Source: a bacterium
GTDB taxonomy: Bacteria; Bdellovibrionota; UBA1018
DNA: 64,000 nucleotides
Assembly (NCBI GenBank): GCA_019751945.1
Contig: JAIEMT010000001.1
Coordinates: forward strand, 6,635 to 70,634
Reading direction: 5' to 3'
The notes below the pieces were generated by a model, which was given only the letters and a program-made list of their open reading frames with translations, was not told where the DNA came from and did not search any database. A program made the position numbers and the translations under genes. Shown one piece after another: positions 2,185-29,751 of this stretch. Position 1 is the first letter of the stretch. Each line of letters opens with the position of its first letter.

Positions 2185-4503
2185 ATGTCACTCTACGATG
2201 ATTCTCTCGAGTACCATGCCCGGGGCCGCAAGGGAAAGATCGAGGTCATTCCCTCGAAGCCCGTCGCCACTCAACAGGATCTTTCGTTAGCTTATTCTCC
2301 CGGTGTTGCGGAACCCTGCCGAATGATCGCCGAAAAAGAAGATCTCGTTTACGAATATACGGCGAAAGGAAATCTGGTTGCCGTCGTTTCGAACGGAACG
2401 GCTGTTCTGGGTTTGGGGGATATCGGAGCTGCTGCTTCCAAACCGGTGATGGAAGGAAAAGGCATTCTCTTTAAGAAATTTGCCGACATCGATGTTTTCG
2501 ACATCGAGTTGAACGCGAAGAATCCGGACGACGTGATTCGCGCGTGTGAAATGCTCGAGCCCACTTTTGGTGGCATCAATCTCGAGGACATTAAAGCTCC
2601 CGAATGTTTTTACATTGAAGAAGAATTGAAGAAGCGTCTGAAAATTCCTGTCTTCCACGACGACCAACACGGCACGGCTGTGATCAGCGGCGCTGCGTTT
2701 TTGAACGCGTGCGAACTGACTAAAAAAGACGTGAAGAAAATGAAGGTCGTGTTCTGCGGCGGCGGCGCTGCGGCCATTGCTTGCGCGAACCTGTACCTGC
2801 ATTTGGGCGTGAAGCGCGAAAACATTCTGATGTGCGACTCGAAGGGCGTGATTTACAAGGGCCGCAAAGAAGGAATGAATCCTTATAAAGAGCGCTACGC
2901 CGTGGATACTCCGAAGCGTACGATCGCTGAAGCTCTCGATGGTGCAGACGCGTTTATCGGTGTTTCTGTAAAAGACGGCATCACCGTCGACATGGTGAAG
3001 AAGATGGCCAAGGATCCGCTGGTTTTCGCGATGGCGAATCCGGATCCGGAAGTGTTGCCCGAAGAAGTGATCAAAGCTCGTCCGGACGCTATCATTGCGA
3101 CGGGGCGTTCCGACTACCCCAACCAGGTGAATAACGTTTTAGGATTCCCGTTCATTTTCCGCGGCGCTCTCGATACCCGTTCCACTGCTATCAACGAAGA
3201 GATGAAGATGGCAGCAGTGATGGCGTTGGCGTCATTGGCAAAAGAAGATGTGCCGGAAAGTGTGTCGCGCGCCTATGGCGGTCAGTCGTTCAAATACGGG
3301 AAAGATTATTTGATTCCGAAGCCCTTCGATCATCGCGCCCTCTTGTGGGTTGCAACCGCAGTAGCGGAAGCTGCCATGAAAACGGGCGTGGCTCGACAGA
3401 AGCTAGATCTCGCTCAGTATCGCGATCATTTAGAAACTCTGCTGGGTGCCAGCTACACCGTCATGCGCGGAATTAAGAAGCGCGTGCAATCGGGCGGTAC
3501 CAATATCGGGAAGGCCACGATTGTTTTCCCCGAAGGCGAACATCCGAAAATTCTTCGGGCCGCTCAGATTATTCGCGAAGAGGGAATCGCTGATCCGATT
3601 CTTCTCGGAAACGAAACCAATATTAATCGCGTGATCAAAGAGTTGGGCCTTCAAGATTCGTTGAAGGGCATCAAGACCATTCGTCCGTCGACGAGTGACA
3701 GCCTCGAAGCCTACGCGAAAGTTTTTGCTGAACGTCGTTCCCGCAAGGGCGTGACGTTGCCGATGGCTCGCACGTTGATGAAGCAATCCAACTTCTACGG
3801 CGCGATGATGGTGGAGCTCGGCCATGCCGATGGACTTTTGAACGGGATATCTCAAAGCTATCCGGAAACTCTTCGTCCGGCGATTCAAGTCATCGGTGCT
3901 CGCCCGGGCTCTCGTCTGGCCGGTATTTACATGATGATTTTCAAGAAGCGCGTGCTCTTGTTTGCCGATACTACGGTGAATATTGAGCCGACCGCGGAAG
4001 AGTTGGCTGATATCGCGATTCAAACGGCGAATTTAGCGCAGCTCTATTTGGGTACGGAGCCTCGTGTAGCGATGCTTTCGTTCTCGAACTTCGGTTCCAG
4101 TACTCATCCCTATTCGGTGAAGGTGCGACGTGCGACGGAGATCATCAAATCGCGCGCGCCCGCACTGGTTTGTGACGGAGAAATGCAGGCCGACACTGCG
4201 GTTGTTCCGGAGCTTTCGAAGGAAAGCTTCTTGTTCAACAAGGTGCCGGGTAATGCCAACATCTTGATTTTCCCAGATCTGCAATCGGGCAATATTGCGT
4301 ACAAACTCATGTCCCGAATGGCTCAAGCGGAAGCGCTCGGCCCGATCTTGGTGGGGATGAATAAACCCGTCTTCGTTCTGCAACAAAACTCGGACGTCAA
4401 TGACGTCGTCAACATGGCTGCCATCACCGCGATGGAAATTCACCTGCGCAAAAAGAAAGATGGCGGCACTGGCAAGAAAGGCGAACTCCATGCAAATGCA
4501 TAA
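2185..4503 (+). CDS. maeB: NADP-dependent malic enzyme with a phosphotransacetylase-like C-terminal domain (MaeB type)
   Basis: 772 aa. The N-terminal malic enzyme motifs ([25 protein letters not shown] Rossmann) are followed by a PTA-like domain of about 330 aa, which is the canonical MaeB architecture. Confidence 0.9.
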
Positions 4504-6171: not shown

Positions 6172-6708
6172 TTAATTTTTTCCGTAGGCGCGATCGACGA
6201 TCGAGTCGACTGCGAGTGCTTGGTACGGCTCGCTCTTGGGGTCCATCTTTTTAAGCCGATCGAGTCCTTCCCAAGTAATGCCCACGCAACCGCTTGTCGG
6301 CTTCGTTAAATGTTCTCGGAGATAAAAATTACCGCCGTAAGCGCAGACTTGGCGAGCGTCTTCAGGGTCATAGGTCGAGTAGACCGACTCGATTTTAGCA
6401 TCGGGTCTGTAATACACGATGGTTTGAACGGCCTTGATTCGATCCACCGCTTCTTGAGCGATGGTTTGAAAGGCGAGAGAATCTTCGGGCAGACTTTGCA
6501 AGTCGCGAAGATCTCCGGTCAGAATTTTGTAACACAGGCCCTTCTCTTCGGGCTTGGGTAGATAGTAAAAGTACCCACCCGCGTGAGTCGTTCGAACGGT
6601 TTTCGTTTCTAAATTTTCTCGTCGAATGCAAACCAGGTTTTCGTTTGCCCAAACTAAAGTCGGGCAGGAAACTAGCGCTGCGAGAAAGAGAATCGAGTTC
6701 TTAAACAA
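6172..6708 (-). CDS. Small secreted hypothetical protein (possible member of a tandem paralog family)
   Basis: Signal peptide MFKNSILFLAALVSCPTLVWA. It shares an AFQ-x-(I/E)A-(Q/K)-x-(A/S)-(V/I) motif with the two downstream paralogs. Confidence 0.5.
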   Translation of the reverse strand: MFKNSILFLAALVSCPTLVWANENLVCIRRENLETKTVRTTHAGGYFYYLPKPEEKGLCYKILTGDLRDLQSLPEDSLAFQTIAQEAVDRIKAVQTIVYYRPDAKIESVYSTYDPEDARQVCAYGGNFYLREHLTKPTSGCVGITWEGLDRLKKMDPKSEPYQALAVDSIVDRAYGKN

Positions 6709-6711
6709 TCC

Positions 6712-7167
6712 TTACTCCTTAGTTTGAGGACCATTTTCTTCTAGGTAACCTCGGATTCGTTGTGCTTGGTCTTCGTCGAAGAGGTCGACGCTCTTTTGCG
6801 CCTCAATTTGAAAAGCGGCAGCTTCCTCGAGTGTACGAGTGGGGAGCATGTTGAGTAAACGATTCTTGTCTGAGCTCCGAACTATCGCGCAGTAGGCGTA
6901 GGGAGGGTTGGCGCCGCCGGGTTCCTCTTTACCAAGCATAGTACCAAGCATAGTAAGCGCTTCTCTGTCGAACATTGCAGCGATGTTCGGGATTTCGTAA
7001 ACCGGTTTTCCATTTACTATGTGAGCACAGAGCATTCCTGGTGATGGACTCTCATCGATTGCCCAAAGAATATCGAGTTTCGGCGGACTCTCTTGGGACA
7101 GAGCAGGTGAAGAGATCAAGAAGGCAAACAAAACAAGCTTTTCTAGTTTCATGAGTTTCTCCAGCAT
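6712..7167 (-). CDS. Small secreted hypothetical protein, paralog of 7455..7964
   Basis: Signal peptide. Conserved PKLDILW-IDE...C...GKPVY...YAYC...AAFQIEAQKSV blocks align with 7455..7964. Confidence 0.55.
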   Translation of the reverse strand: MLEKLMKLEKLVLFAFLISSPALSQESPPKLDILWAIDESPSPGMLCAHIVNGKPVYEIPNIAAMFDREALTMLGTMLGKEEPGGANPPYAYCAIVRSSDKNRLLNMLPTRTLEEAAAFQIEAQKSVDLFDEDQAQRIRGYLEENGPQTKE

Positions 7168-7170
7168 GGT

Positions 7171-7458
7171 TTAGGGTTTTCCTAAGCACTTCCCGTTGAC
7201 CAAGAGGACAAAACGGCCAGTACGACGATCAAAGCAATAGTAGGGTTCTGAGTCGATGGTTCCTTCAGCGATAATAGAAAGAGCGGAGTCTGGATTTCTC
7301 AGCAGAGGCTCAATGGCGTCGTTTATTTCTTGAGCGGCTTTTATGTACAAAGCATACTTCGCGGTCGTCATAGGGGCGGAGTTTTCACTCGGGGACGTCA
7401 CGGCGAGGGCCGATGAAGAGGTGAATAAGACAAATAGAGCTAGTTTTTGGATAGTCAT
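7171..7458 (-). CDS. Small secreted hypothetical protein (95 aa)
   Basis: Signal peptide MTIQKLALFVLFTSSSALA. Two Cys residues. Tightly packed between the paralogs, with a 4-nt overlap with the upstream gene. Confidence 0.45.
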   Translation of the reverse strand: MTIQKLALFVLFTSSSALAVTSPSENSAPMTTAKYALYIKAAQEINDAIEPLLRNPDSALSIIAEGTIDSEPYYCFDRRTGRFVLLVNGKCLGKP

Positions 7459-7964
7459 GGGTTCTTCCCTTTCAATTTTTCAGCAGCTTCAAGCTGCAAT
7501 CGATATCGTTCACTAAATTGTTCATAGGCTTTAATATCTATGGGCACTTCGCGTACAAGAGGCTCGCCTGGTTTTGTAAGATCTACTTGAGAAGCATGGT
7601 AGCGTTCAAGTTGGGCAGCGTACTCATCACCGTAACGTTCAATGCTAGCCTTCGCTTCTTTCTGAAAGGCCGCTTGGTCTTCCGGAGTTTTTGCATTCGA
7701 ATACATTTTGCTTAAACGCGAGAAGTCAGCGGGGGTCACCCGGTTACAATATTCGTAGCTGCCGCCGTCGCGATCGAGTTCCGGCATGGCGTAAATCGGC
7801 TTGCCTTGAGAAAGCCGGGCGCAGACGAGTTGATCTGTGCTTCGTCGCGCACCGTCATCAATGACAAAGAGAATGTCTAGTTTCGGATTGTCTTGAGCCA
7901 ACACCGAAAGCGACGACAACACAGCAGCCGATAAAACAAAGTAACGAATCTTCATGCGGCGCAA
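7455..7964 (-). CDS. Small secreted hypothetical protein, paralog of 6712..7167
   Basis: Signal peptide. NPKLDILFVIDD...C...GKPIY...YEYC...AAFQKEAKASI blocks shared with 6712..7167. Confidence 0.55.
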   Translation of the reverse strand: MRRMKIRYFVLSAAVLSSLSVLAQDNPKLDILFVIDDGARRSTDQLVCARLSQGKPIYAMPELDRDGGSYEYCNRVTPADFSRLSKMYSNAKTPEDQAAFQKEAKASIERYGDEYAAQLERYHASQVDLTKPGEPLVREVPIDIKAYEQFSERYRLQLEAAEKLKGKNP

Positions 7965-9023: not shown

Positions 9024-9039
9024 GTACGCAGCTGCGTAC
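9024..9039. terminator. 16-bp perfect palindrome GTACGCAGCTGCGTAC followed by CAAAAAG, a possible bidirectional terminator or protein-binding site
   Basis: Seen directly, 30 nt after the stop of the DUF218 gene. Confidence 0.25.
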
Positions 9040-9142
9040 GCAAAAAGTCGCGCGCTCTTGTCTCTGAATCCTTTTGGGTCTAACAAGGATTTAGGGATTT
9101 GCTTTTGGGATCCGTTCATTTCTAAACAGAAAAGGGAGATTT

Positions 9143-9445
9143 ATGAAATCTTTTAAAGTCGCATTGGTGTCTTTTATTTCTTTAATGAGTGTATCGAGCT
9201 TTGCTGCTGAAGCGATGATGCCTTACATCATTATCGTCAAGAACGAATTTGATTTTGCTGAGTGTGCTGATGACATCGAGATGATTAAGGGCGTAACGGT
9301 TACTGAACGGATTGATATTATCTCAACGGTTGCTGCAGAGATGAGCGATCGTGCGTTGAGCAAAGTGCAGAAGATGGATTGTGTCGGTAGCGTGGAAGAA
9401 GATCAACAGGCGTATCCGTTGCCAGCTATTGGCGGCAGTAAGTAA
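9143..9445 (+). CDS. Small secreted protein with a subtilisin-propeptide (peptidase inhibitor I9)-like fold, tandem copy 1
   Basis: Signal peptide MKSFKVALVSFISLMSVSSFA. The mature part YIIIVKNEFDFAECADDIEMIKGVTVTERIDIISTVAAEMSDRALSKVQKMDCVGSVEEDQQAY follows the I9 pattern (YIVxxK ... G.V.....I..f.a.ls...l..l...p.V..VE.D). Confidence 0.5.
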   Translation: MKSFKVALVSFISLMSVSSFAAEAMMPYIIIVKNEFDFAECADDIEMIKGVTVTERIDIISTVAAEMSDRALSKVQKMDCVGSVEEDQQAYPLPAIGGSK

Positions 9446-9477
9446 ATGGGTGAGTCGTTTATAGAAATGGGAGATTT

Positions 9478-9792
9478 ATGAAATCCTTAAAAGTTGCTTT
9501 GGTACTACTTGTCTCTTTCATGAGTATGTCGAGTTTTGCTGCCGAGTGCGGTTGGCAGCAGCCTTATATCGTTCTGGTTCGGGCTGGATATGATTCTGAA
9601 GCCTGCGCCGATGCAATTGATTTGATCAAAGGTGCTGAGGTTCGGGAGGTCATGCATACCTTTCAGCAGATGACCGCGGATCTTTCTCCCAGGGCCTTGT
9701 TGAAGGTAGGGAAACTCGGCTGCGTAGAAAATGTGCAGCCGGATCGGACGATGTACCCTCAGCCGGCTATCGGGGGCAGTAAAGAAAGATGA
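9478..9792 (+). CDS. Small secreted inhibitor-I9-like protein, tandem copy 2
   Basis: Paralog of 9143..9445 and about 45% identical to it. The RBS/start context GGGAGATTTATGAAATC is duplicated. Confidence 0.5.
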   Translation: MKSLKVALVLLVSFMSMSSFAAECGWQQPYIVLVRAGYDSEACADAIDLIKGAEVREVMHTFQQMTADLSPRALLKVGKLGCVENVQPDRTMYPQPAIGGSKER

Positions 9793-10622
9793 GTTCCGAA
9801 GGCTGGTCTGTAGAGCAGATCAATACGATTCTGCAATCGACCCACTATCGGGAACTGCTTCGAGTGGCGTTGAATGAGAGGGCGCGCACTGGTCGGGCCC
9901 TCTCTTTTGCAGAGTTGAGTCGACGAGGAGGATTCCGTTCTCGGAGCTTTCCGCGAGATGTCTTGGGGAGTACGCGAGGCCTGACTCGAGAATCCGCCCG
10001 TCGTTTCGCGAAAGCATTCGGCTTTCCCTCTGTAGTTTCGACCTATCTCTATGCCCTGGTGGACTTGGATCGGGAACAGGAAAGCCTGGAGCTTCGAAAA
10101 AAGGCGCAGGTTCTTCAGGCCCGAGCGATTCGGAAAATCAGGGCTCGTACAGAAAATGCTCCTAAAAACGCTTTTGTGTTGCCCGAATTTAGCAAGGTGT
10201 ACGCGGCTTTGGGGTCTCCTACGCGGGGCGCTACTCTCGAGGAAATCGAAAAAAGAACGAAGCTTTCTCGAAAAGAACTGCTGAGGACGCTGGAAGCCTT
10301 GATAGAGAGTCAGTTGGTGGTGGAGGAAGAAGGGCGTTGGAAGGCCAAGCAGAACATCCTGCTTTTCGACAACCTTTCTAAACATGAATTTTTTCAGAAA
10401 GTTTTTCTACGAAGATTAAAGAATGCCCAGGTTTTGGCTCAAACCCAATTCCAAAGGGACGATGCGCTTTTTTGGGAGAGCACTTTTTCTATTTCATCGA
10501 AACGGTTGCCCGAACTCCGAGTTCGCCTGCGTGAGGTTCTGGGTCGATTTATAGAAGAGGCTGAAGAGTTCGAGGGAGATCAAATCTCTTCGGTAGCCGT
10601 TTCTTTTTTTCCGTTAGATTGA
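9789..10622 (+). CDS. Cytoplasmic hypothetical protein with an N-terminal HTH-like region (resembles TIGR02147/DUF4423-type proteins)
   Basis: No signal peptide. The N-terminal ALNERARTGRALSFAELSRRGGFRSRSFPRDVLGS looks like an HTH. The start overlaps the preceding stop (ATGA), suggesting translational coupling. The family assignment is from memory and uncertain. Confidence 0.45.
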   Translation: MSSEGWSVEQINTILQSTHYRELLRVALNERARTGRALSFAELSRRGGFRSRSFPRDVLGSTRGLTRESARRFAKAFGFPSVVSTYLYALVDLDREQESLELRKKAQVLQARAIRKIRARTENAPKNAFVLPEFSKVYAALGSPTRGATLEEIEKRTKLSRKELLRTLEALIESQLVVEEEGRWKAKQNILLFDNLSKHEFFQKVFLRRLKNAQVLAQTQFQRDDALFWESTFSISSKRLPELRVRLREVLGRFIEEAEEFEGDQISSVAVSFFPLD

Positions 10623-18501: not shown

Positions 18502-19178
18502 CAGAGAATCGGAACTCCCTCGGTCTGAAGCTCCACAGCCATTTTGTCGATCTCGTACATTTCTTTTAAATCCTTGATCTGAGCATCCAGAAACATCCAC
18601 GAAACGGTTTTTGCGAGCCACGGGTAAGATTTCTTTTGTTCCGCTTCGGCAGCGTAGATCGGGCCTTGAACGGCGGTCGATCCAATCGATTCTAGAAAAT
18701 GTCGAGTTATGCAAAAGTAAGAGGGAATCTCTTTGAGACGGATAATTTCTAAGAAAGCTTGCTTTTGAAGACCAAAAAAATCCCGCTTCGACGCGAATTC
18801 CTGAAGGCGACTCTGAATGGCTTCAATCTTGGGATAATCGGAAGGAAGCAGCGCTCTCGGGTGGGGCTGAACATAGCTCAAAAAAGCCGGTGCACCTTTG
18901 ACTGAAACCAGCTCCCGACAGAGCATCGGAATTCCCTTCGCTCGAAACGGCGCGGTGATGGGTTCCAGCAAATAGAGTTTCGCGATGGCCCAGTTTTCGT
19001 AGTCAATCAAACGCTTGGTGATGGGTTCCGATCGGCCCTTGGTCACCGTCTTATAAAGGATGTCTCGGGAGTGGTTGAGCTCTTTTCCTTCCTCAACGTG
19101 CGTGCGAATGCAGGGCTCGCTGAGGCAGGCGGAGAGGAGGAAGACTAACAGGAACGCACAGGGAATCTGCTTAATCAT
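18456..19178 (-). CDS. Hypothetical lipoprotein
   Basis: MIKQIPCAFLLVFLLSAC lipobox-like signal. It is the last gene of the MoxR-to-cyclase operon and overlaps the upstream gene by 8 nt. Confidence 0.45.
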   Translation of the reverse strand: MIKQIPCAFLLVFLLSACLSEPCIRTHVEEGKELNHSRDILYKTVTKGRSEPITKRLIDYENWAIAKLYLLEPITAPFRAKGIPMLCRELVSVKGAPAFLSYVQPHPRALLPSDYPKIEAIQSRLQEFASKRDFFGLQKQAFLEIIRLKEIPSYFCITRHFLESIGSTAVQGPIYAAEAEQKKSYPWLAKTVSWMFLDAQIKDLKEMYEIDKMAVELQTEGVPILCQDVPAIPFKPAQSL

Positions 19179-21111
19179 TCAATCGGAATACCAGGCCGTA
19201 TTCCTCACGGCAAGGCATCAACGAGGGGGCTGCTCTCAGAAGTTCGTACGGGTGCATGGTTTGTTTGGCGAGGTTTCGGAGAGACTCGTTTCGAGCCTGG
19301 AAGAGTTCAGCCTCTAGTTGTCCCAGTAGACGAGGCGCGGATTCGGGATCTGCACGGAGTTGTTCAGTCCAGCCTGACGGAACTTCAATGGGAGGATTTG
19401 TTTTCAGAGTTCCCCAGGTCAGAAAGAGATGGATGTTGGGATCGAGGGCCACCTCCGTTTGGAGAAGTTTCCTTTGCCGGTTGACGATATCAGAGATGGC
19501 TTCATTGAGTGCGGCGCTTCGGTCGCTTCTGAGTTTTCCAGGCGGAGGTATCGAGTGAGCATCGATCTCTCGAAAATCACTTGTAACCGCTAAGTAGGCC
19601 CGATTCTCTATGATCTCCGAAAGGAATTTTTGCAGAAGTTTGGGGTCATTGTAAAAAGTCTTTCCAAATTCAACCGAGTATTTTGCCTGAGTCTGCTCGA
19701 TGATTTTTGAAAGTTCCTCGAGGTCATTTCTTAGTTTAATAGCGGTACGATGAAGTTCTTGGTCAAACTTAAGAAAACGATTCACTGTTGCTCCGAAGTG
19801 AGGACTATTGGTATTGGCGAGATTCTCCAAATCTTCTGCGTAGCGAATCCGATTTACTGCGCCTCCGGCTTGTCGAAAGGTCTCCATTCCCACCTCGACT
19901 TGATTTCTACAGGCTTCCAGAATGCCCGCGCGCTCTCTCAGGTTTTTTAGCTGACGCACGTTAATTCTTTCGGGGCTTTCTGCGAAAGCAGCAGCTGCTG
20001 GCACTCTTTCAATCGATGGAGACCTTCTTCTGTCTAGAGCAAAGTATTCACGCGCCGAGGGAGACTGTGCAGCTTCGAGTCCTAGTAGTTCTGCCTCGTT
20101 GGTAACAAGCTCTCCAATCTTAGCAGCGAGACTAGGATCTGCCAGGAGACCCTGCTCCCGAGCTAAAGCCAGCATTTCCTCTCGAAACAGTCTGATTCTT
20201 CTGAGAGGGAAGACGCCACCATCGGGACTGGGGACTTGATTCGGGTCGAATTTTCTTAGGAATCCGTGGATATGCTGGGAAGCTTCGAGTTCCAAACCAT
20301 ATCTCTTTTCAACTTCTGCCTTCAGTTGAGTGTATCGGGTATCAAATTTTTTAGAATTTACACGGACTCTGTCTGCCTCTGTACCTAGTGTCGAAAGAAA
20401 TCGTTCGAAGTTTGAGTCGTTAATTTGTTGAAGGCGCGAAGGACGAATCGCAGAGGCGGCCCCTTTTTTGTAGGTGCTACGAAAATCCTGGATTCGTTTC
20501 GCGGCCTGTTTTCTAATTCGCTGAGATTCTTGATTGCTTTCCTCATTCGTCATGACCATGAGGCTTCCGCGAGGATCAGATCGATAAGTAGGTCTATTTT
20601 GTTTCAGAATTTGGAAATAACTACGAACCTCTGGAGAACGTGAAACCTCAAGTTCATGCATCTGAGTTTCATTGGAGATTAGGAATTCGGTCATTTCTTT
20701 TAAGGCTGTCGATTTTTTTAAGGAAACCTGTCCCGCTTTCACCTCTTCTTTTAATGTGTCGATTTGGAAGAGCGGAAAGGTGGGACCGCCATCAGAAGAA
20801 ATTCTGGCCATCCGGCCGAGAAATTCTCCTCGCAGCTCTACGCTTTCTAAGAAGCTGGCACCGTGCTTCGCCACAAAATCTTGGTGGACTTCCTTGAATT
20901 TGTTTTCAAATTCACGAGTATTCTTCTGGATCCGATCTTTCCAGGCTCGAATATCGACTTGAAGGCCCCTCATTTGCCTCAGGACTTCAATCCCGAAGTC
21001 CTTCTCGTTAGAAACGGCTTTAATTAGTCCGTCCTCGTCGGCTTCAGCGGCGAATAGCGAGGAGGCAGTGAGTGTGGCGGAAAGAATCCACGCCGCCGTC
21101 CAGAGCTTCAT
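19171..21111 (-). CDS. Large secreted hypothetical protein (646 aa) with internal repeats and coiled-coil character
   Basis: Signal peptide MKLWTAAWILSATLTASSLFA. Internal repeats such as SRSPEVRSYFQILKQNR and AQSPSAREYFALDRRRS. The start abuts the cyclase stop. Confidence 0.5.
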   Translation of the reverse strand: MKLWTAAWILSATLTASSLFAAEADEDGLIKAVSNEKDFGIEVLRQMRGLQVDIRAWKDRIQKNTREFENKFKEVHQDFVAKHGASFLESVELRGEFLGRMARISSDGGPTFPLFQIDTLKEEVKAGQVSLKKSTALKEMTEFLISNETQMHELEVSRSPEVRSYFQILKQNRPTYRSDPRGSLMVMTNEESNQESQRIRKQAAKRIQDFRSTYKKGAASAIRPSRLQQINDSNFERFLSTLGTEADRVRVNSKKFDTRYTQLKAEVEKRYGLELEASQHIHGFLRKFDPNQVPSPDGGVFPLRRIRLFREEMLALAREQGLLADPSLAAKIGELVTNEAELLGLEAAQSPSAREYFALDRRRSPSIERVPAAAAFAESPERINVRQLKNLRERAGILEACRNQVEVGMETFRQAGGAVNRIRYAEDLENLANTNSPHFGATVNRFLKFDQELHRTAIKLRNDLEELSKIIEQTQAKYSVEFGKTFYNDPKLLQKFLSEIIENRAYLAVTSDFREIDAHSIPPPGKLRSDRSAALNEAISDIVNRQRKLLQTEVALDPNIHLFLTWGTLKTNPPIEVPSGWTEQLRADPESAPRLLGQLEAELFQARNESLRNLAKQTMHPYELLRAAPSLMPCREEYGLVFRLND

Positions 21112-23007
21112 TTAAGCCGCCTTTTTGATTCGGAAGGGCGGCGGAGTCAATTCGTGGCGGCGGAAGGGGGGCGGAGTCTTTCCGATGAAGGTGCTTTCAC
21201 CCGTGGTGCCGCTTTCCGGGGGAATGAACTCGTAGCCTTCTTTGAAATTGATGACCTCGTACACAGCGACTTCTTCAGCCTTGCCCTTCACCTTGGTGGT
21301 GCCGCGGGCTTCGCAGTGAATGAATTCTTGAATTTCTGCGTAGGTTTCGTCGCTGATCAGGATGTCGGTTTTGAATTCTTTGGTGAGTGACTCCATTCGG
21401 GAGGTCAAGTTCACGTTGTCGCCCAGAATCGTGTATTCCATGCGTTCGGGAGAACCGATGTTCCCCGCGACGACTGAGCCGGTGTGCATGCCCATTCCGA
21501 TGGCGATAACGGGCTTCCCATTCGCCGCTTGGTCTTCATTAAAACGTTTGAGTTCAGCGCGCATGCGGAGCGCTGCGGAGACAGCGCGGAGTGAGTCGTT
21601 TTCGTGCGAAATCGGCGTGCCGTAGACGGCCATGATGGCGTCACCGACGTATTTGTCGACCACGCCTCCGTGAGCGAAAATGATTCGCACCATGCGGGTC
21701 ATGTAACCGTTGATCAGTTCCACGACCTGTTCCGGTTCGAGTTTCTCGGAAATGCTGGTGAATGAACGAATGTCTGAGAAGAAAATGGTGACCTTCTTGC
21801 GTTCACCGGTGAGCTGCATTTCGCCCGATAGAATTTTATCAGCGATATCCTTGGAGTGAAATTTTGAAAACGCGTTTTTAATTTTTTCACGCTCGGCTAA
21901 GCCCTGAGTCATCTCCGTGAACGATTTCGAAAGATCTCCGATTTCGTCGTTGCTCGTTTTTTTAATTTTGACTTGGTAATTGCCCTTGGAAATTTCTTCA
22001 GTCGCTTCCACCAAGCTGATGAGCGGGCGGGTGAGCGATAAGCTGAACAAGAAGATCACGTAGAAGCCGATGACGCTCACAATCGTGGTGATGTAAATCG
22101 AAGTGTTTCGAACCTGGCGCGCTGGCTTCGTAGCCATGGCTTCTTCTTTTTGTGTGACGACGCCGATGTTTGCAAAACCCACCGTTTTAAACGCACCCAG
22201 GTACGCCACGCCGTTGGAAGGATCAACGAATCGAGTTTGACCGTTGTTGATGGTCTTCGCCGAAATCAATTGCTTCACGATTTCTAAGTGCGAAACGTTT
22301 TCCCGTTTCAGAACTTTTTGCTGATCAGGATGAGCAAGTAAGTAGCCCTGTGAATCGACCAGATAGCTGGTGTTGAGATTGTCGGAGTCGTCCTTCTGAT
22401 CGGGTGAACGGGTGCCGTTCGAAACCGTTCGTAAGAATCGATCTTGTTTCAAGATGGCCACTACCGAGTGAGTGACGTTGTTCTGGTCGTCGCTCACGAG
22501 TGGAAGTGATATCACCATCAGTGGAATATTTCCGTGAAGCTGAAGGCTTTGAATGGTTTCGTTCCCAGCCTTCATCTTGTCATAAGGGAGTTCGCCCAGA
22601 ATCTTTTGCATTTCTTCGTTGTTGGAATCGAGGCTTTTTACCAGCGCGTCGTTCGAGGCTTGGCCAACCGGACGGGCCTTTCCATCGGCGAGAGTGAAAA
22701 CCGTGGTACTAAGCAAATCTTTTTCGTGTTCGAAAAGCGGGCGTTGCACTGCTTCGACTTGTGCTTGGGGAAGGTTCTGCATGAGAGTGACACCGAGGAG
22801 GCGCATCTTCTCAGCGAGATTGTTCAAGTCGTTCTTCATCACTTGAGCCACCAGGCGAGCCGTTTCCAAGTTACTTTCTTGGACGCGCGCCACGTTGTCG
22901 CGGTTGAAGAAGAAGCTGGCGAAACCAATGATTGCCAGTGCCGCTGCCAGCAGCACGGTGTTGATGATTCCCACCAGTTTAGTGCGAATATTGAAACGAA
23001 CCTTCAT
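21112..23007 (-). CDS. Receptor-type class III adenylate/guanylate cyclase with a periplasmic sensor domain and a HAMP domain
   Basis: TM1, a periplasmic domain of about 270 aa, TM2, HAMP (LISLVEATEEISKGNYQVKIKKTSNDEIGDLSKSF), then the cyclase core FSDIRSFT...VDKYVGDAIMAVYG. The C-terminal tail has a duplicated TPPPFR. Confidence 0.85.
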   Translation of the reverse strand: MKVRFNIRTKLVGIINTVLLAAALAIIGFASFFFNRDNVARVQESNLETARLVAQVMKNDLNNLAEKMRLLGVTLMQNLPQAQVEAVQRPLFEHEKDLLSTTVFTLADGKARPVGQASNDALVKSLDSNNEEMQKILGELPYDKMKAGNETIQSLQLHGNIPLMVISLPLVSDDQNNVTHSVVAILKQDRFLRTVSNGTRSPDQKDDSDNLNTSYLVDSQGYLLAHPDQQKVLKRENVSHLEIVKQLISAKTINNGQTRFVDPSNGVAYLGAFKTVGFANIGVVTQKEEAMATKPARQVRNTSIYITTIVSVIGFYVIFLFSLSLTRPLISLVEATEEISKGNYQVKIKKTSNDEIGDLSKSFTEMTQGLAEREKIKNAFSKFHSKDIADKILSGEMQLTGERKKVTIFFSDIRSFTSISEKLEPEQVVELINGYMTRMVRIIFAHGGVVDKYVGDAIMAVYGTPISHENDSLRAVSAALRMRAELKRFNEDQAANGKPVIAIGMGMHTGSVVAGNIGSPERMEYTILGDNVNLTSRMESLTKEFKTDILISDETYAEIQEFIHCEARGTTKVKGKAEEVAVYEVINFKEGYEFIPPESGTTGESTFIGKTPPPFRRHELTPPPFRIKKAA

Positions 23008-23012
23008 AGTCC

Positions 23013-25169
23013 CTATCTTTTATCGGCTGTCGAATTCTTAAACTGAAGATAGAGATCGGAAAGTTCACGGCTTTTTTGGAAAAGGTCTTTCTCGTCAGGG
23101 GGGCCGAATCGGAAATGATTGTAGAGCTGAACCCAGTTCTGCAGAGCATGCGTCGCGCTATGTCCAAATTTTGACTCCACCTGGACCAGGCTGCGCTGAA
23201 ATTCGAGAGTTTTGCGGGATTCTCGGAGTTTTTTACTCAGAAGACGTTCGAGCTTGATGCGTTGCGCGCGAAGCCACCACGGACCCTCTCGAACTCTCCA
23301 ACGAATCGAAAAAATTCCGGGGAACCAGGTTCGGGCGACCAAGAGGCCAATGACGCCGACCACGACAATCAGGACAAAGGCAACGACAGCGAGCCATTGA
23401 TAGTGAGCGAACGTGTCGCGGACCCACTGACCAAATCGAGAGGTCTGACCATCTCCCGAGGATTTTCTAAACGGGGCAGTGACACTTAAACCCATTTCGA
23501 TTTGAGAGTTGGATTCGAACGACAAGACGTATCGGTACCAGTAAGCGCTGAGGGCTTCGTATTGGTCTCGGAAGGTGTCGAGGAGGGAGAGGTTCACGTA
23601 CTCTCTCGGAGTGGGGTCGTAAACTTTCCAACCTTCTCTGGGAATCCAAACCTCCAGCCAAGCGTGCGCGTCGCCCGAGCGAACGGTTAAAATTCCGTTT
23701 GCCGGACCTCGCGAGAGTCGAAATCCGGCGATCAAGCGAGTGGGGACTCCGCCCATCCTAAGGAGGACTGCAGCCGCGCTGGCAAAGTGTTCGCAGTGGC
23801 CAGCCTTCGAAACAAAGAGAAATTTTTCGATCGCATTGAGTTGGGAAGCAAGCGAGCGATTCTGAGTGTTGAAATATTCTTCCTCCGTGTTTGCTAGAGT
23901 GGCTTTGTAGCCTTTGCCCAGGAGGTCCATCACTTTTCCAAGTTTTGTCGCGGCATCCGTCTCGGTGGGGAAAAGGCGTTTCACGAATTTTTTTAGTCCA
24001 TTGGTACGAATGGAATCTGGAACGATGAGGTGAACGGGTTGAGGAAGGTCGTCCTCGCGAAAAGATTTGTGGATGGCCAGAGATTTTCCGCTCAGTGAGA
24101 AGTTATAGCTCACTCGTCGAGTTCTGGAGTTGGATTCGTTCCACTCACTTCCACTCGTTCGCATGGGGCGGGTTTTGAATCCGCTTTCCTCAAGAAGGAC
24201 TCGGTTAGCTCCGTAGGGAACAGGCAATACAACCGAGTCGATGGGCTCGCGAATGGCAAAAACGGAGAGCTGATTTTTCTCATCCATTTCTGTTGCGGGG
24301 TTTCGGTTCCTTTGGCGGTAAGGCATTGGAACCATCTCGCGCTTTCCCTGAGGGGTATTGTACCAGTCTTTACCATCGAAGACCGAGAGGACCCGTCCCC
24401 GAAGGAGACCCGCGAAGACCAAGCTCAGGAAAAACTGATTGGCCGTTTTGGCGTCATCCATTTGGGTGAACATTCGAATTACGGGAGATCCGCTGCCAGC
24501 ACCGGTGAGTGAGAATCCCTTAGCGAGGGTGACTTCTTCCGTGTAACCGACTCGGCGTTGATCCACGAGGTCCGGCATTCCCGTTTTTGTTCTCGGGAGA
24601 ATGGGGAAGATGGCAAAACTGCTTAAGAGAATCACCGCTGATAGCATCAAACTGTTTCGAAGATAGGATGGCGATAGCGGACGATGAAGCTGTTCGGGCG
24701 CTCGCGTTTTAAATTCGCTTTCTAAGAACAGTGTCGAAATGAGGATCGAACTGAGAATGGCGAAAAGAAAAATAGCCAGGGAGAGATAGAGATCGTTGGT
24801 GATGGCAGCCGTGAGGTTGAGCTCCACAAATCCGATGCCGACGCGCCAACCCTTCTCACGTGGAGTAGGAGCTGAGAACCAAAGCGAGGCATGAAAAATC
24901 GGCGCCGCCTGAGCCACCATCAAGAGCAGCGGCTCTTTTAGAAACCACCAAGAAAAGAAAGTTCCGCAAAGAGTGAGAAAGAGAGCCCCGGCCATCCAGC
25001 CGTTTCCCATTTGAATGCGGCGCAATCGCGTCAGTACAAGGAGACTCAGGACGAAGGCCCAAATGCCGGGGCGCACTTCCCCGGTGAGAGCCAGAGTTCC
25101 CAAAGCAATGAGATCGAGCGACCAGCTCAGAAATCCGGAGAGGCGAGTGACGGACCAGTTCGAGATCAC
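23013..25169 (-). CDS. Transglutaminase-like membrane protein (TgpA-like: DUF3488, transglutaminase core, DUF4129-like C-terminus)
   Basis: Multi-TM N-terminus, the core GHCEHFASAAAVLLRMGGVPTRLIAGF...GDAHAWLEVW (Cys-His-Asp), and a C-terminal TM region. Confidence 0.85.
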   Translation of the reverse strand: MISNWSVTRLSGFLSWSLDLIALGTLALTGEVRPGIWAFVLSLLVLTRLRRIQMGNGWMAGALFLTLCGTFFSWWFLKEPLLLMVAQAAPIFHASLWFSAPTPREKGWRVGIGFVELNLTAAITNDLYLSLAIFLFAILSSILISTLFLESEFKTRAPEQLHRPLSPSYLRNSLMLSAVILLSSFAIFPILPRTKTGMPDLVDQRRVGYTEEVTLAKGFSLTGAGSGSPVIRMFTQMDDAKTANQFFLSLVFAGLLRGRVLSVFDGKDWYNTPQGKREMVPMPYRQRNRNPATEMDEKNQLSVFAIREPIDSVVLPVPYGANRVLLEESGFKTRPMRTSGSEWNESNSRTRRVSYNFSLSGKSLAIHKSFREDDLPQPVHLIVPDSIRTNGLKKFVKRLFPTETDAATKLGKVMDLLGKGYKATLANTEEEYFNTQNRSLASQLNAIEKFLFVSKAGHCEHFASAAAVLLRMGGVPTRLIAGFRLSRGPANGILTVRSGDAHAWLEVWIPREGWKVYDPTPREYVNLSLLDTFRDQYEALSAYWYRYVLSFESNSQIEMGLSVTAPFRKSSGDGQTSRFGQWVRDTFAHYQWLAVVAFVLIVVVGVIGLLVARTWFPGIFSIRWRVREGPWWLRAQRIKLERLLSKKLRESRKTLEFQRSLVQVESKFGHSATHALQNWVQLYNHFRFGPPDEKDLFQKSRELSDLYLQFKNSTADKR

Positions 25170-26068
25170 GCTGCCTCCTTTCGAGGAATCAGCCCTTGGG
25201 CTTGAGCCAGCGCGAGTTGATCCAAGGAATCTTTTCTGCCGTGATACGTGCGCGCACCTTCCCAGTCGACGAGGGTGAGCGACCAGGTTTTTCCTTCTTC
25301 GCCCGCGTCGGAGTAGAAGACTTGGGCGAGGTCTCGAATTCGATTTTCCAACGACGTGCCCGCTTCGGTACGTAGATCCAGAACGAGTTTTTCATCCTGA
25401 CTTTCAGAACGGCGTTGTCGGACGAGAGGTTCCGTGCCGCGTGCACTGAGTGTCCAGACGACGTGTCGGTAGTCGTCGTCCCAGGTCATGGGGCGAACTT
25501 CTCCCTCTTGGATTCTGACTCCGGCTTTAAAAGTTCCCTCGGAGTTTGGAGATCGATTTTTAGAGCTGTCTCCCTTGAGGGGCTCTGGCCAAATGATTCG
25601 TCTTCCGCCTTTGTTACTCAAGATTCTGAGTTTTTTTGCGAACCCAAAAGGGTAGCTCGTCGCGATGGCAAGGGCATCCCAGGTGTGCCATCCCCGTTGA
25701 TCGAAGCGCTGTTTTGAAGAAATCACAATGGACTGCCGGGGCGCGAGAAAGGGTACAAACGCAGATGGAACGAACTTTCCATTTGTCCATTCCCCCACTT
25801 CTACACAGAAGATTGGAAATCGTCGTTGGTTCGAAATGTAGACTTGGTCTTTCGGAGCCGAGTTGGCCGCTACAGGAATTCTTTTAAACTCAATTTTGAG
25901 AGCTGAGATGGAGCGCTCAGAGAGGATTCCAGAAAGGATGAGACCGCTCAGAAGAAGGCTTTCGATCAGATAGACGATGTTATTTCCGGAAGAGAGGGCC
26001 ACGACCCCGAGCAGAATCGTCAGAGCTACGTACCAGCGACCTGCAACCGTGACTTCCAGTTTTCGCAT
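25166..26068 (-). CDS. DUF58 domain protein
   Basis: The N-terminal TM pair followed by the DUF58 core. It sits in the conserved MoxR-DUF58-TgpA arrangement with 3-4 nt junctions. Confidence 0.75.
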   Translation of the reverse strand: MRKLEVTVAGRWYVALTILLGVVALSSGNNIVYLIESLLLSGLILSGILSERSISALKIEFKRIPVAANSAPKDQVYISNQRRFPIFCVEVGEWTNGKFVPSAFVPFLAPRQSIVISSKQRFDQRGWHTWDALAIATSYPFGFAKKLRILSNKGGRRIIWPEPLKGDSSKNRSPNSEGTFKAGVRIQEGEVRPMTWDDDYRHVVWTLSARGTEPLVRQRRSESQDEKLVLDLRTEAGTSLENRIRDLAQVFYSDAGEEGKTWSLTLVDWEGARTYHGRKDSLDQLALAQAQGLIPRKEAA

Positions 26069-26071
26069 GGG

Positions 26072-27055
26072 TTATTTTGGAGAGCGAACTCTCTCCAAAA
26101 TCTCCTGAATAACTGCGCGTTTTTGCGTCGTTCCTCGATGTCCGTCGGTAAAAGACAAACGATGGGCAAGGCATGCCACCGCCATGTCCCGAACTTCTTT
26201 GGGGCTGACGAAGTCTTGACCGCGAAGATAGGCTAGGCCTTTTGCAGCCGCGACGAGTTGCAGGCCCCCCCGAACGGAGACGCCGAAGGCAATGTCCTCG
26301 TGAACGCGAGTAGCGCGAACAAGGTCCAAGCAGTATTCGAGAACTGATTTTTCGACAAAGAGACGGGCCACTGAGGAACGAATTTTCTGAATTCCCTCGA
26401 TCGTGAAAAGGGGTTCTTCCGTGGTCTCAGAAACCAAGGGTGAGGAACGGTCCGTATGGGCCTGGTAGATTTCAAATTCGCTGTCTTTTTCTGGAGAATC
26501 CACCGTGAGAGAAAGCATGAAGCGATCGAGTTGGCTTTCTGCGAGCGGGTAGACACCCTGAAACTCTGCCGGGTTCTGTGTAGCAACTACGAAGAACGGA
26601 TTGGGAAGCGAGTAGACTTTTCCGTCGACTGTCACAGTGGCTTCGGCCATGGATTCGAGTAGAGCGCTTTGGGTTTTTGGTCCCGTTCGGTTCAACTCGT
26701 CTGCTAGGAGAAAATTCGTGAAGATCGGGCCCTGGCGAAATTCAAATTCCGAATCGCCGGGCTTTAGGCGCAAGATTCCCACGATGTCGCTGGGAAGCAG
26801 GTCACTGGTCATTTGGATTCTTCGAAAAGTTCCGCCGAAGCAGGAGGCCAAGCCTCGGGCCAAAGAAGTTTTTCCGGTGCCCGGAGCCCCTTCCAAGAGG
26901 AGGTGCCCCGCGCCCAAGAACGTCGCGAGCGACAATTCTACGACGGAGTCTTTTCCATGCAGATATTGGGACAGCCTCTTCAAAGCGAGTTGAAGGAGAG
27001 CTTGATGCTCAGCGTGATTCTCACCTCTGAGTTTTTCGGAGCGCGCAATGGACAT
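26072..27055 (-). CDS. MoxR-family AAA+ ATPase
   Basis: GAPGTGKTSLARGLA Walker A, DELNRTGPKTQSALLE Walker B/sensor, and 327 aa, typical of MoxR. Confidence 0.9.
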   Translation of the reverse strand: MSIARSEKLRGENHAEHQALLQLALKRLSQYLHGKDSVVELSLATFLGAGHLLLEGAPGTGKTSLARGLASCFGGTFRRIQMTSDLLPSDIVGILRLKPGDSEFEFRQGPIFTNFLLADELNRTGPKTQSALLESMAEATVTVDGKVYSLPNPFFVVATQNPAEFQGVYPLAESQLDRFMLSLTVDSPEKDSEFEIYQAHTDRSSPLVSETTEEPLFTIEGIQKIRSSVARLFVEKSVLEYCLDLVRATRVHEDIAFGVSVRGGLQLVAAAKGLAYLRGQDFVSPKEVRDMAVACLAHRLSFTDGHRGTTQKRAVIQEILERVRSPK

Positions 27056-27237
27056 GAGTGGTCCCTCTCTCTTTTTGAATCGACATAAACGGCGGTTCGT
27101 ATGAGAAGAATCGATCAGTTCGTTATAGTTTAGTTATTTAATAAATTATCAGCAGATAATCTGGGCAGCTTCTGCCCACCGACGTGGTGCATTAACCTCT
27201 TCTTTCTCCAGATTTAGGCCGATACGAAGTGTAGAGC

Positions 27238-29742: not shown

Positions 29743-29751
29743 TTTGCAAAA

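What the first reader, a model, noticed from the sequence alone, without database searches (positions are those of the whole stretch)
9143..10622. Tandemly duplicated secreted inhibitor-I9-like mini-proteins translationally coupled to a cytoplasmic HTH-like protein
Two proteins of 100 and 104 aa each consist of a signal peptide plus a single domain whose sequence pattern matches the subtilisin propeptide / peptidase inhibitor I9 fold. The duplication includes the RBS/start context (GGGAGATTTATGAAATC), so it is recent or maintained. Standalone secreted I9 domains would be candidate protease inhibitors or chaperones, for example to control the bacterium's own proteases. The third gene has no signal peptide, has an HTH-like N-terminus, and overlaps the second gene's stop (ATGA). 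This is an odd coupling of exported and cytoplasmic products.
Basis: partly seen in the sequence, partly recalled or inferred. Interest (0 to 1): 0.6.

Follow-up and report, generated by a model that had tools for sequence, protein, structure and literature searches.

The report
Exported subtilisin-propeptide-like proteins paired with regulator
Two small exported proteins that resemble the inhibitory pro-piece of subtilisin proteases sit next to a putative DNA-binding protein of an uncharacterised family. The same gene pairing recurs in distant uncultured bacteria, which gives a first functional clue for both families.

Summary
Genes A (9143-9445, 100 aa) and B (9478-9792, 104 aa) are 51% identical paralogs. 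Each has a signal peptide and the same 17-nt RBS/start. Gene C (9789-10622) overlaps B's stop (ATGA).

C passes the curated cut-offs of TIGR02147 and DUF4423. A and B miss Pfam Inhibitor_I9 at E<=1. [quoted passage not shown] Sequence profiles also reach real propeptides (E 1.6e-8, 1.5e-5; hhalign 91%).

A and B belong to a rare, unannotated exported family, often lipoproteins with two fused domains. The family has two invariant cysteines, the subtilase helix-capping VE.D motif and a conserved 7-residue C-terminal tail (PSTRIGN; here PAIGGSK).

In 8 of 8 loci with readable flanks the gene lies next to a TIGR02147 gene, co-directional or divergent. No subtilase lies in the window or in any flank.

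The duplication is old (synonymous sites saturated). Signal peptide, tail and RBS are maintained by selection.

Best reading: disulfide-stabilised subtilase inhibitors under a local TIGR02147 regulator. The inhibitor function is inferred, not shown. One non-I9 lipoprotein with the same tail next to a TIGR02147 gene keeps a signalling role for the tail open.

The parts
9024..9039 (.). Perfect 16-bp palindrome GTACGCAGCTGCGTAC upstream of gene A. It is a candidate operator and marks the left boundary of the module.
   Evidence: Unique in the window; 0 expected by chance. Strain-variant contigs L004/L005 are identical to the window from exactly this point rightwards and unrelated to its left. The operator role is inferred.
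9061..9097 (.). Imperfect inverted repeat (13-nt arms, 11-nt spacer) in the A promoter region
   Evidence: Significance not tested. Every related intergenic region also has some inverted repeat, but no shared motif was established.
9134..9150 (+). RBS plus start context of gene A (GGGAGATTTATGAAATC)
   Evidence: Identical 17-mer to the one before gene B.
9143..9445 (+). Gene A: signal peptide (residues 1 to about 21), I9-like domain (about 26-91), tail PAIGGSK (94-100; nt 9422-9442)
9469..9485 (+). RBS plus start context of gene B (the same 17-mer)
9478..9792 (+). Gene B: paralog of A (51% identity). Signal peptide, I9-like domain, tail PAIGGSKER (nt 9763-9789). The near-invariant Glu of VE.D is Gln here (VQPD).
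9789..10622 (+). Gene C: cytoplasmic TIGR02147/DUF4423 protein. It has a helical HTH-like N-domain, a central winged-helix-like segment (about 136-183) and an alpha/beta C-terminal part. Its start overlaps B's stop by 4 nt.
   Evidence: NCBIfam TIGR02147 53.4 bits (cut-off 50) and Pfam DUF4423 40.5 bits (cut-off 30). AF2 model and Foldseek matches to repressors.

Best explanation
A-B-C is one copy of a conserved two-component gene module.

Component 1 (A and B) is an exported protein built from a domain remotely homologous to the subtilisin propeptide (MEROPS I9 fold). It is probably stabilised by one disulfide, so that it folds on its own. It ends in a short, disordered and strongly conserved C-terminal tail.

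The most likely action is the one known for stand-alone propeptide-like inhibitors. The sheet docks on the two surface helices of a subtilase through the conserved Glu/Asp caps (VE.D). The following six residues lie in S4-S1. The conserved Pro sits at P1', so the chain is not cut and the protein acts as a stable rather than a temporary inhibitor. The target would be a subtilase encoded elsewhere in the genome, possibly for self-protection of the envelope.

Component 2 (C) is a cytoplasmic TIGR02147 protein with HTH-like modules. It most likely binds the shared promoter region and controls expression of the adjacent exported-protein gene(s). Here it is autoregulated as one A-B-C transcript.

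Shown: the genes, paralogy, fold, remote homology, family features, conserved adjacency and absence of a nearby subtilase. Inferred: export, the disulfide, subtilase binding and inhibition, the register of the tail, DNA binding and regulation by C.
For: Fold: pLDDT 83.7, b-a-b-b-a-b. The PDB Foldseek top 31 hits are all subtilase propeptides or POIA1, TM 0.57-0.71, 21-28% identity.

Sequence: the A+B profile finds a Pfam-verified S8 + Inhibitor_I9 protein at E 1.6e-8 in 1.84e9 proteins. The family profile hits the subtilisin BPN' prosegment at E 1.5e-5 and subtilisin E at 8e-4. hhalign gives 91%, E 1e-6.

Conserved features in 30 domains: two invariant Cys. Glu is present in 27/30 and Asp/Glu/Asn in 27/30 at the positions of BPN' Glu69/Asp71, the helix caps (PMC6993865). 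Val is present in 19/30 at P4 and Pro/Ala at P2. Pro is present in 18/30 at P1' in the gap-free alignment, and in nearly all C-terminal domains.

Selection: the tail is the most constrained part (pN 0.044 against 0.40 in the core).

Export: signal peptides or lipoboxes are present in essentially all full-length members.

Module: a TIGR02147 gene is adjacent in the window, L009, L010, L011, L012, L013, L014 and L018. L013, L014 and L018 were not used to build the profile.

C: family cut-offs are passed, and the weak fold matches are all transcription repressors (Stl, MarR, IclR, LysR, CRP).

Other TIGR02147 paralogs also sit next to lipoprotein genes (L018, L022).
Against: No subtilase gene lies in the 64-kb window or in any related flank, so no target is identified.

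No member reaches Pfam Inhibitor_I9.

B has Gln in place of the capping Glu.

The ferredoxin-like fold is common, and inhibition is not shown.

In L022 a lipoprotein with no detectable I9 similarity carries the same tail next to a TIGR02147 gene. This suggests the tail may serve the partnership with TIGR02147 rather than a protease active site.

Some relatives lack the tail (P0014, P0018, P0022).

The C model is only moderately confident (pLDDT 72) and its PDB matches are weak (E >= 0.015).
Confidence: 0.5

Rival explanations
1. Signalling pair. The conserved C-terminal heptapeptide of the exported protein is the functional element. It is released or displayed outside the cytoplasm and is sensed, directly after import or indirectly, by the TIGR02147 protein. 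The I9-like domain is only a carrier, or it gates release of the peptide.
For: The tail is the most constrained segment and has a fixed length at the extreme C-terminus. The same tail is found on a non-I9 lipoprotein next to a TIGR02147 gene in L022. Pairing with a cytoplasmic HTH-like protein is strict (8/8 loci). Tail subtype, signal type, gene arrangement and TIGR02147 subtype co-vary.
Against: C has no recognisable peptide-receptor domain such as TPR. No peptide transporter or processing protease is linked. The tail is conserved across very divergent species, unlike diversifying pheromones. The co-variation is equally explained by vertical co-inheritance. The L022 case is a single locus.
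Confidence: 0.13
2. Trans-acting foldase. A and B act as intermolecular chaperones needed to fold a subtilase that lacks its own propeptide, rather than as inhibitors.
For: Subtilisin propeptides are folding catalysts as well as inhibitors (PMC6993865 introduction). The homology to propeptides is real.
Against: No adjacent subtilase is present. The invariant Cys pair and the tail with Pro at the inferred P1' point to a stable binder rather than a transient one. Stand-alone propeptide-like proteins characterised so far are inhibitors (PMC6993865).
Confidence: 0.1
3. The propeptide-like fold has been co-opted for a function unrelated to proteases, for example binding an envelope component. TIGR02147 is simply the local regulator.
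For: There is no subtilase linkage. The fold is generic: NapD and HMA domains appear lower in the fold search. There is no Pfam I9 hit.
Against: The residues that are specifically conserved are the ones that contact subtilases in known complexes: the VE.D caps, hydrophobic P4 and Pro/Ala at P2. I9 proteins outrank all other ferredoxin-like folds by both sequence and structure.
Confidence: 0.22
4. A and B are remnants of a decayed subtilase gene, or are spurious ORFs.
For: None was found beyond the propeptide similarity.
Against: Each has its own RBS, start, signal peptide and stop. There is purifying selection. Homologs are stand-alone genes in at least 10 other loci. There is no S8 similarity in any frame of the flanks. 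The downstream gene is TIGR02147.
Confidence: 0.01

Closest known systems
Stand-alone subtilisin propeptide-like inhibitors of MEROPS family I9: Pleurotus POIA1, yeast PBI2, Arabidopsis SPI-1, Toxoplasma MIC5, Plasmodium SUB1-ProM
   Same: [quoted passage not shown] It has Glu/Asp helix-cap positions and a C-terminal extension after the last strand. POIA1 (1v5i_B) is among the fold matches. Some of these inhibitors are secreted.
   Different: All the characterised ones listed in PMC6993865 are eukaryotic. The present family is bacterial and is exported via Sec or as a lipoprotein. It usually has two or three domains, or tandem genes. It has an invariant Cys pair and a 7-residue tail beyond the inferred P1 that starts with Pro. 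It is linked to a TIGR02147 gene rather than to a subtilase gene, whereas SUB1-ProM lies next to subtilase genes.
Subtilisin BPN'/E and Tk-subtilisin propeptides (Pfam Inhibitor_I9, PF05922)
   Same: These are the best sequence and structure matches. The VEED motif aligns column for column.
   Different: They are covalently attached to an S8 catalytic domain, have no Cys pair, are unstable alone and are degraded after activation. Here the proteins are stand-alone, and the PF05922 HMM does not score them.
TIGR02147 ('Fsuc_second') / DUF4423 family
   Same: C passes both curated cut-offs over nearly the full length.
   Different: The only mention my literature search found is one proteomics table entry for Bdellovibrio Bd3700, so no function is known. 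The link to exported I9-like or lipoprotein genes seems not to have been described.
RRNPP-type peptide signalling cassettes of Firmicutes (Rap/Phr, PlcR/PapR, NprR/NprX); comparison from general knowledge
   Same: A gene for an exported protein whose conserved part is the extreme C-terminus lies adjacent to a gene for a cytoplasmic HTH protein.
   Different: The exported partner here is a folded protein of 80-200 aa, not a 40-aa pro-peptide. C has no TPR domain. The tail is conserved across lineages rather than diversified. This is a resemblance only.

Membership tests
Pfam Inhibitor_I9 (PF05922) / MEROPS I9 | Scores above the gathering threshold of the PF05922 HMM | tested here: not met
   No hit at E<=1 for A or B, nor for any of 30 family domains. 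The control P0011 scores 46.9 bits.
Pfam Inhibitor_I9 (PF05922) / MEROPS I9 | [quoted passage not shown] | tested here: met
   AF2 pLDDT 83.7. The 31 top Foldseek PDB matches are propeptides, pro-subtilases or POIA1.
Pfam Inhibitor_I9 (PF05922) / MEROPS I9 | Detectable sequence homology to bona fide propeptides | tested here: met
   E 1.6e-8 to P0011 propeptides. E 1.5e-5 to 1spb_P. hhalign 91%, E 1e-6.
Pfam Inhibitor_I9 (PF05922) / MEROPS I9 | Acidic helix-capping residues equivalent to BPN' Glu69 and Asp71 | tested here: met
   A has E and D (VEED). In the family Glu is 27/30 and Asp/Glu/Asn 27/30. B has Gln and Asp. The role of these residues is taken from PMC6993865.
Pfam Inhibitor_I9 (PF05922) / MEROPS I9 | C-terminal strand occupies S4-S1 of the protease | tested here: inconclusive
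   The gap-free alignment places V/A at P4, P/A at P2, L/Q at P1 and Pro at P1'. The tail is disordered in the monomer model. No complex could be modelled.
Pfam Inhibitor_I9 (PF05922) / MEROPS I9 | Attached to, or encoded near, a cognate S8 peptidase | tested here: not met
   No S8 similarity and no GTSMAxP motif in any ORF of the window or of 14 related loci. Pfam scans of 20 large window ORFs show none.
Pfam Inhibitor_I9 (PF05922) / MEROPS I9 | Inhibits a subtilase | not testable with these tools
   Needs biochemistry.
TIGR02147 / DUF4423 (gene C) | Scores above the curated cut-offs of both models | tested here: met
   TIGR02147: 53.4 bits against 50, residues 13-276 on profile positions 3-269 of 272. 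DUF4423: 40.5 bits against 30.
RRNPP-like peptide signalling (considered) | Receptor with a TPR-type peptide-binding domain | tested here: not met
   No TPR hit in C. The model shows HTH-like helices plus an alpha/beta C-domain.
RRNPP-like peptide signalling (considered) | The mature signal is a short C-terminal peptide of the exported partner | not testable with these tools
   Only the conservation of the tail is seen.

The most novel reading that the evidence does not exclude
The conserved core of the module is the C-terminal heptapeptide (P-x-x-x-[IV]-G-N; here PAIGGSK) together with the TIGR02147 protein. Exported carrier proteins, I9-like or not, present or release this peptide, possibly gated by a subtilase. 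The cytoplasmic TIGR02147 regulator responds to it. That would be a new peptide- or protease-activity-sensing circuit in Gram-negative, possibly predatory, bacteria, and it would give the whole TIGR02147 paralogous family a function.
Probability: 0.12. Interest if true: 0.8.

Novelty: new variant of a known kind. Interest (0 to 1): 0.55.

Why it matters
The well-characterised stand-alone propeptide-like subtilase inhibitors listed in PMC6993865 are from fungi, yeast, plants and apicomplexans. A bacterial, exported, disulfide-bearing, often two-headed version with a conserved tail past the scissile position would extend that class. It could also serve as a natural template for stable subtilase inhibitors.

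The strict pairing with TIGR02147 gives the first testable hypothesis for that uncharacterised family: a local regulator of exported-protein or lipoprotein genes. The family is expanded in Fibrobacter (NCBIfam model name 'Fsuc_second') and present in Bdellovibrio (Bd3700).

The family is rare (about 20 clusters at 50% identity among 1.84 billion representatives) and known only from uncultured organisms. This limits its immediate impact.

Tried and rejected
- The word-indexed homolog search with A+B, and then with the 30-domain profile, returned only the window's own proteins. Only the exhaustive HMMER search found relatives.
- A degenerate DNA pattern for the 'C-V..V-E ... PST.[IV]GN-stop' motif found one genome locus (L018) and nothing in the metagenome collection.
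- A TIGR02147 subfamily alignment found two more metagenome loci.
- phmmer of B against PDB gave only spurious hits.
- A profile of the TIGR02147 alignment against PDB gave nothing significant.
- Rfam found nothing in the window.
- The sigma-70 promoter scan found no site, and terminator-like sites were at chance level.
- Rejected: a degraded subtilase, a recent duplication, HMA/MerP or NapD identity (ranked below all I9 matches, and no CxxC motif), and DUF218 as part of the module (strain variants break at 9024).
- L019/L020 and L021 lie at contig ends. They show no TIGR02147 gene downstream and are uninformative upstream.
- The phylum of the source organism could not be established. NCBI calls it 'bacterium'.

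Full report
**1. What is in the sequence**

- A: 9143-9445, 100 aa.
- B: 9478-9792, 104 aa.
- C: 9789-10622, 277 aa. Its ATG overlaps B's TGA.

A and B are 51% identical over their whole length (BLASTP E 5e-34). The 17-mer GGGAGATTTATGAAATC (RBS, spacer and first codons) precedes both genes.

Both proteins begin with MKSxK, a hydrophobic stretch of about 15 residues, and SFA|AE. I read this as a Sec signal peptide from the sequence; no predictor was available. C has no such N-terminus.

The same three proteins were called on 12 contigs from several metagenomes. They are deposited as MBY0469536-38 (K2X30_00095/100/105, organism 'bacterium'). A and B are annotated 'hypothetical protein' and C 'DUF4423 domain-containing protein'.

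**2. Age of the duplication**

A codon-wise comparison of A and B gives pS 0.83, which is saturated. The pN values are 0.135 in the signal peptide, 0.40 in the domain core and 0.044 in the last ten codons.

The duplication is therefore old, and both copies are under purifying selection. The identical RBS/start, the signal peptide and above all the C-terminal tail are maintained by selection. They are not recent copies.

**3. Are A and B I9-like?**

Neither A, B nor any of 30 related domains scores against Pfam Inhibitor_I9 even at E<=1. No NCBIfam model covers them.

Three independent lines nevertheless support remote homology.

- **Structure.** The AF2 model of mature A (pLDDT 83.7, from a two-sequence alignment) has the order strand-helix-strand-strand-helix-strand. 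Its 31 best Foldseek matches in the PDB are all subtilisin BPN'/E, Tk-subtilisin or fungal propeptides, pro-subtilases, or the stand-alone inhibitor POIA1 (TM 0.57-0.71, 21-28% identity). NapD and HMA domains come only after these.
- **Exhaustive sequence search.** A HMMER profile of A+B against 1.84 billion representatives finds P0011 (E 1.6e-8). Pfam shows P0011 to be Peptidase_S8 with Inhibitor_I9 propeptides exactly at the matched stretches.
- **Family profile.** A profile of 30 family domains hits the subtilisin BPN' prosegment (1spb_P, E 1.5e-5, full length) and the subtilisin E propeptide (8e-4). hhalign against a P0011 propeptide gives 91% probability, E 1e-6 and 31% identity over 71 columns.

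**4. The family**

The exhaustive search found about 20 relatives and nothing closer to A/B than E 1e-14.

Most relatives are 180-200 aa with two tandem domains in one chain. Some have three domains and some have one. Nearly all full-length members start with a signal peptide or a lipobox.

Across 30 domains, one search shows:
- The only invariant columns are two cysteines, one in helix 1 and one just before the last strand. In exported proteins this suggests a disulfide; this is inference, since I could not inspect coordinates.
- Glu is present in 27/30 and Asp/Glu/Asn in 27/30 at the two positions that align with Glu69 and Asp71 of the BPN' propeptide. Those residues cap the two surface helices of subtilisin (PMC6993865). 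B is the one domain with Gln for the Glu.
- Continuing the gap-free alignment, the six residues after VE.D correspond to P6-P1. Val is 19/30 at P4, Pro/Ala at P2, and Leu/Gln/Asn at P1.
- The next residue, at P1', is Pro in nearly every C-terminal domain.

After that Pro comes a fixed-length tail at the very C-terminus:
- PSTRIGN, PSTGVGN or PSIRVGN in lipoprotein members.
- PGLGRSN or PASGVRN in signal-peptide members.
- PAIGGSK(ER) in A and B.

In two-domain proteins only the last domain carries the tail. The tail is disordered in the model (pLDDT below 50).

A hydrophobic P4 and Pro/Ala at P2 match what subtilisins prefer. Pro at P1' would block cleavage. Both statements rest on established enzymology from my own knowledge, and the register is inferred.

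**5. Gene C**

C passes NCBIfam TIGR02147 (53.4 bits, cut-off 50, nearly full length) and Pfam DUF4423 (40.5 bits, cut-off 30). It has sub-threshold winged-helix hits (HTH_20, TrmB, MarR_2) at residues 136-183.

The AF2 model (pLDDT 72 overall, about 90 for the N-terminal 120 residues) is all-helical in the first half, followed by a winged-helix-like unit and an alpha/beta C-terminus. Foldseek matches are weak (E 0.015-0.2), but all are transcription regulators: Stl, MarR, IclR, LysR and CRP.

The paper library holds only one mention of the family, Bd3700 in a Bdellovibrio proteome table.

**6. Conserved pairing**

Every related locus whose flanks can be read has a TIGR02147 gene next to the I9-like gene.

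- Co-directional and almost abutting: L009 (11-nt gap) and L011 (3-nt gap), like the window.
- Divergent across 150-350 bp: L010, L012, L013, L014 and L018.

L013 and L014 were reached from the TIGR02147 side, and L018 by a DNA pattern. Their I9-like proteins were not in the profile, so they are independent confirmations.

Arrangement, signal type (signal peptide against lipobox), tail subtype and TIGR02147 subtype co-vary. Adjacency is conserved, but translational coupling is not. No third gene is shared by these loci.

L019/L020 and L021 sit at contig ends and are uninformative.

**7. No subtilase nearby**

phmmer with an S8 catalytic domain and a GTSMAxP motif scan found nothing in any ORF of the window or the loci. 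Pfam scans of 20 large window ORFs show housekeeping genes, including PBP2, RodA, UvrA, a SurA-like protein, AdoHcy hydrolase, 2-oxoacid dehydrogenase E2/E3, MoxR and an adenylate cyclase. No protease is among them.

The degraded-subtilase scenario is excluded.

**8. An observation that cuts the other way**

In L022 a TIGR02147 relative is divergently paired with a 236-aa lipoprotein. Its body shows no similarity to the I9-like family (hmmsearch E 3.8; hhalign 0.15%), yet it ends in P-A-V-T-V-G-N.

Other TIGR02147 paralogs lie next to lipoprotein genes without the tail (L018).

TIGR02147 proteins therefore seem to be generally linked to exported-protein genes. The tail may belong to the partnership rather than to the I9 domain. 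This rests on one locus.

**9. Interpretation**

I commit to the following, with about 0.5 confidence for the mechanism:
- A and B are independently folding, disulfide-stabilised propeptide-like subtilase inhibitors. Their tail runs through the active site without being cut.
- C is the local transcription factor.

Rivals are a tail-based signalling circuit (0.13), a trans-acting foldase (0.1) and a protease-unrelated use of the fold (0.22).

The fold, the homology, the family features and the conserved pairing are shown. Inhibition, the disulfide, the register of the tail and DNA binding are inferred.

**10. Comparison with the known and novelty**

The well-characterised stand-alone I9-like inhibitors listed in PMC6993865 are all eukaryotic. 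I found no bacterial counterpart in the paper library, which is not proof of absence.

The family fails formal Pfam I9 membership and lacks a linked protease, but it keeps the contact residues. I rate it a new variant of a known kind with moderate interest. It is a rare family from uncultured organisms, but it offers a first handle on TIGR02147.

Noticed in passing
window 9024-9039; L004:1-120, L005:1-60: Two independent assemblies (L004, L005) are identical to the window from the left edge of the palindrome GTACGCAGCTGCGTAC onwards and completely different upstream. They have no DUF218 gene and both contigs end shortly after. This is not a fold-back artefact. It suggests a strain-level rearrangement or insertion breakpoint exactly at the palindrome.
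   Followed up: partly
window 6172-7964 (- strand): A run of four small genes for exported proteins (178, 151, 95 and 169 aa) with no Pfam hits. The 151-aa and 169-aa proteins are paralogs (32% identity, E 2e-18; shared PKLDIL-x-IDD motif after the signal peptide), and the 178-aa protein is weakly related.
   Followed up: partly
L022:1487-2203 (-) and 2524-3339 (+): A lipoprotein with no detectable I9 similarity ends in PAVTVGN, the same C-terminal tail pattern as the I9-like family. It is divergently paired with a TIGR02147 gene.
   Followed up: partly
L018:1246-3774 (-): A second, distant TIGR02147 paralog (254 aa) lies directly upstream of a 582-aa lipoprotein gene, 2 kb from the I9-like/TIGR02147 pair. 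The contig is labelled as a Polynucleobacter MAG, which may be a binning error.
   Followed up: no
L019:110-646 and 3109-3576 (also L020): Two tail-less two-domain I9-like genes lie 2.5 kb apart. They flank a CopG-antitoxin-like gene pair, and no TIGR02147 gene lies between them.
   Followed up: no
P0016 and P0019 (single-domain relatives): These two carry an extra pair of cysteines in an insertion after helix 1 (…CSIAKDHGSGGC… and …CKISAVHGNGEC…). This suggests a second disulfide in that subgroup.
   Followed up: no
window 19171-32019: This stretch encodes a MoxR-type AAA ATPase, a transglutaminase-like TgpA protein, a dCache/HAMP adenylate cyclase and two large proteins. One of these (834 aa) has a FecR domain and the other (755 aa) has no Pfam hit. 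The neighbouring 646-aa and 300-aa ORFs have no Pfam hits either.
   Followed up: no
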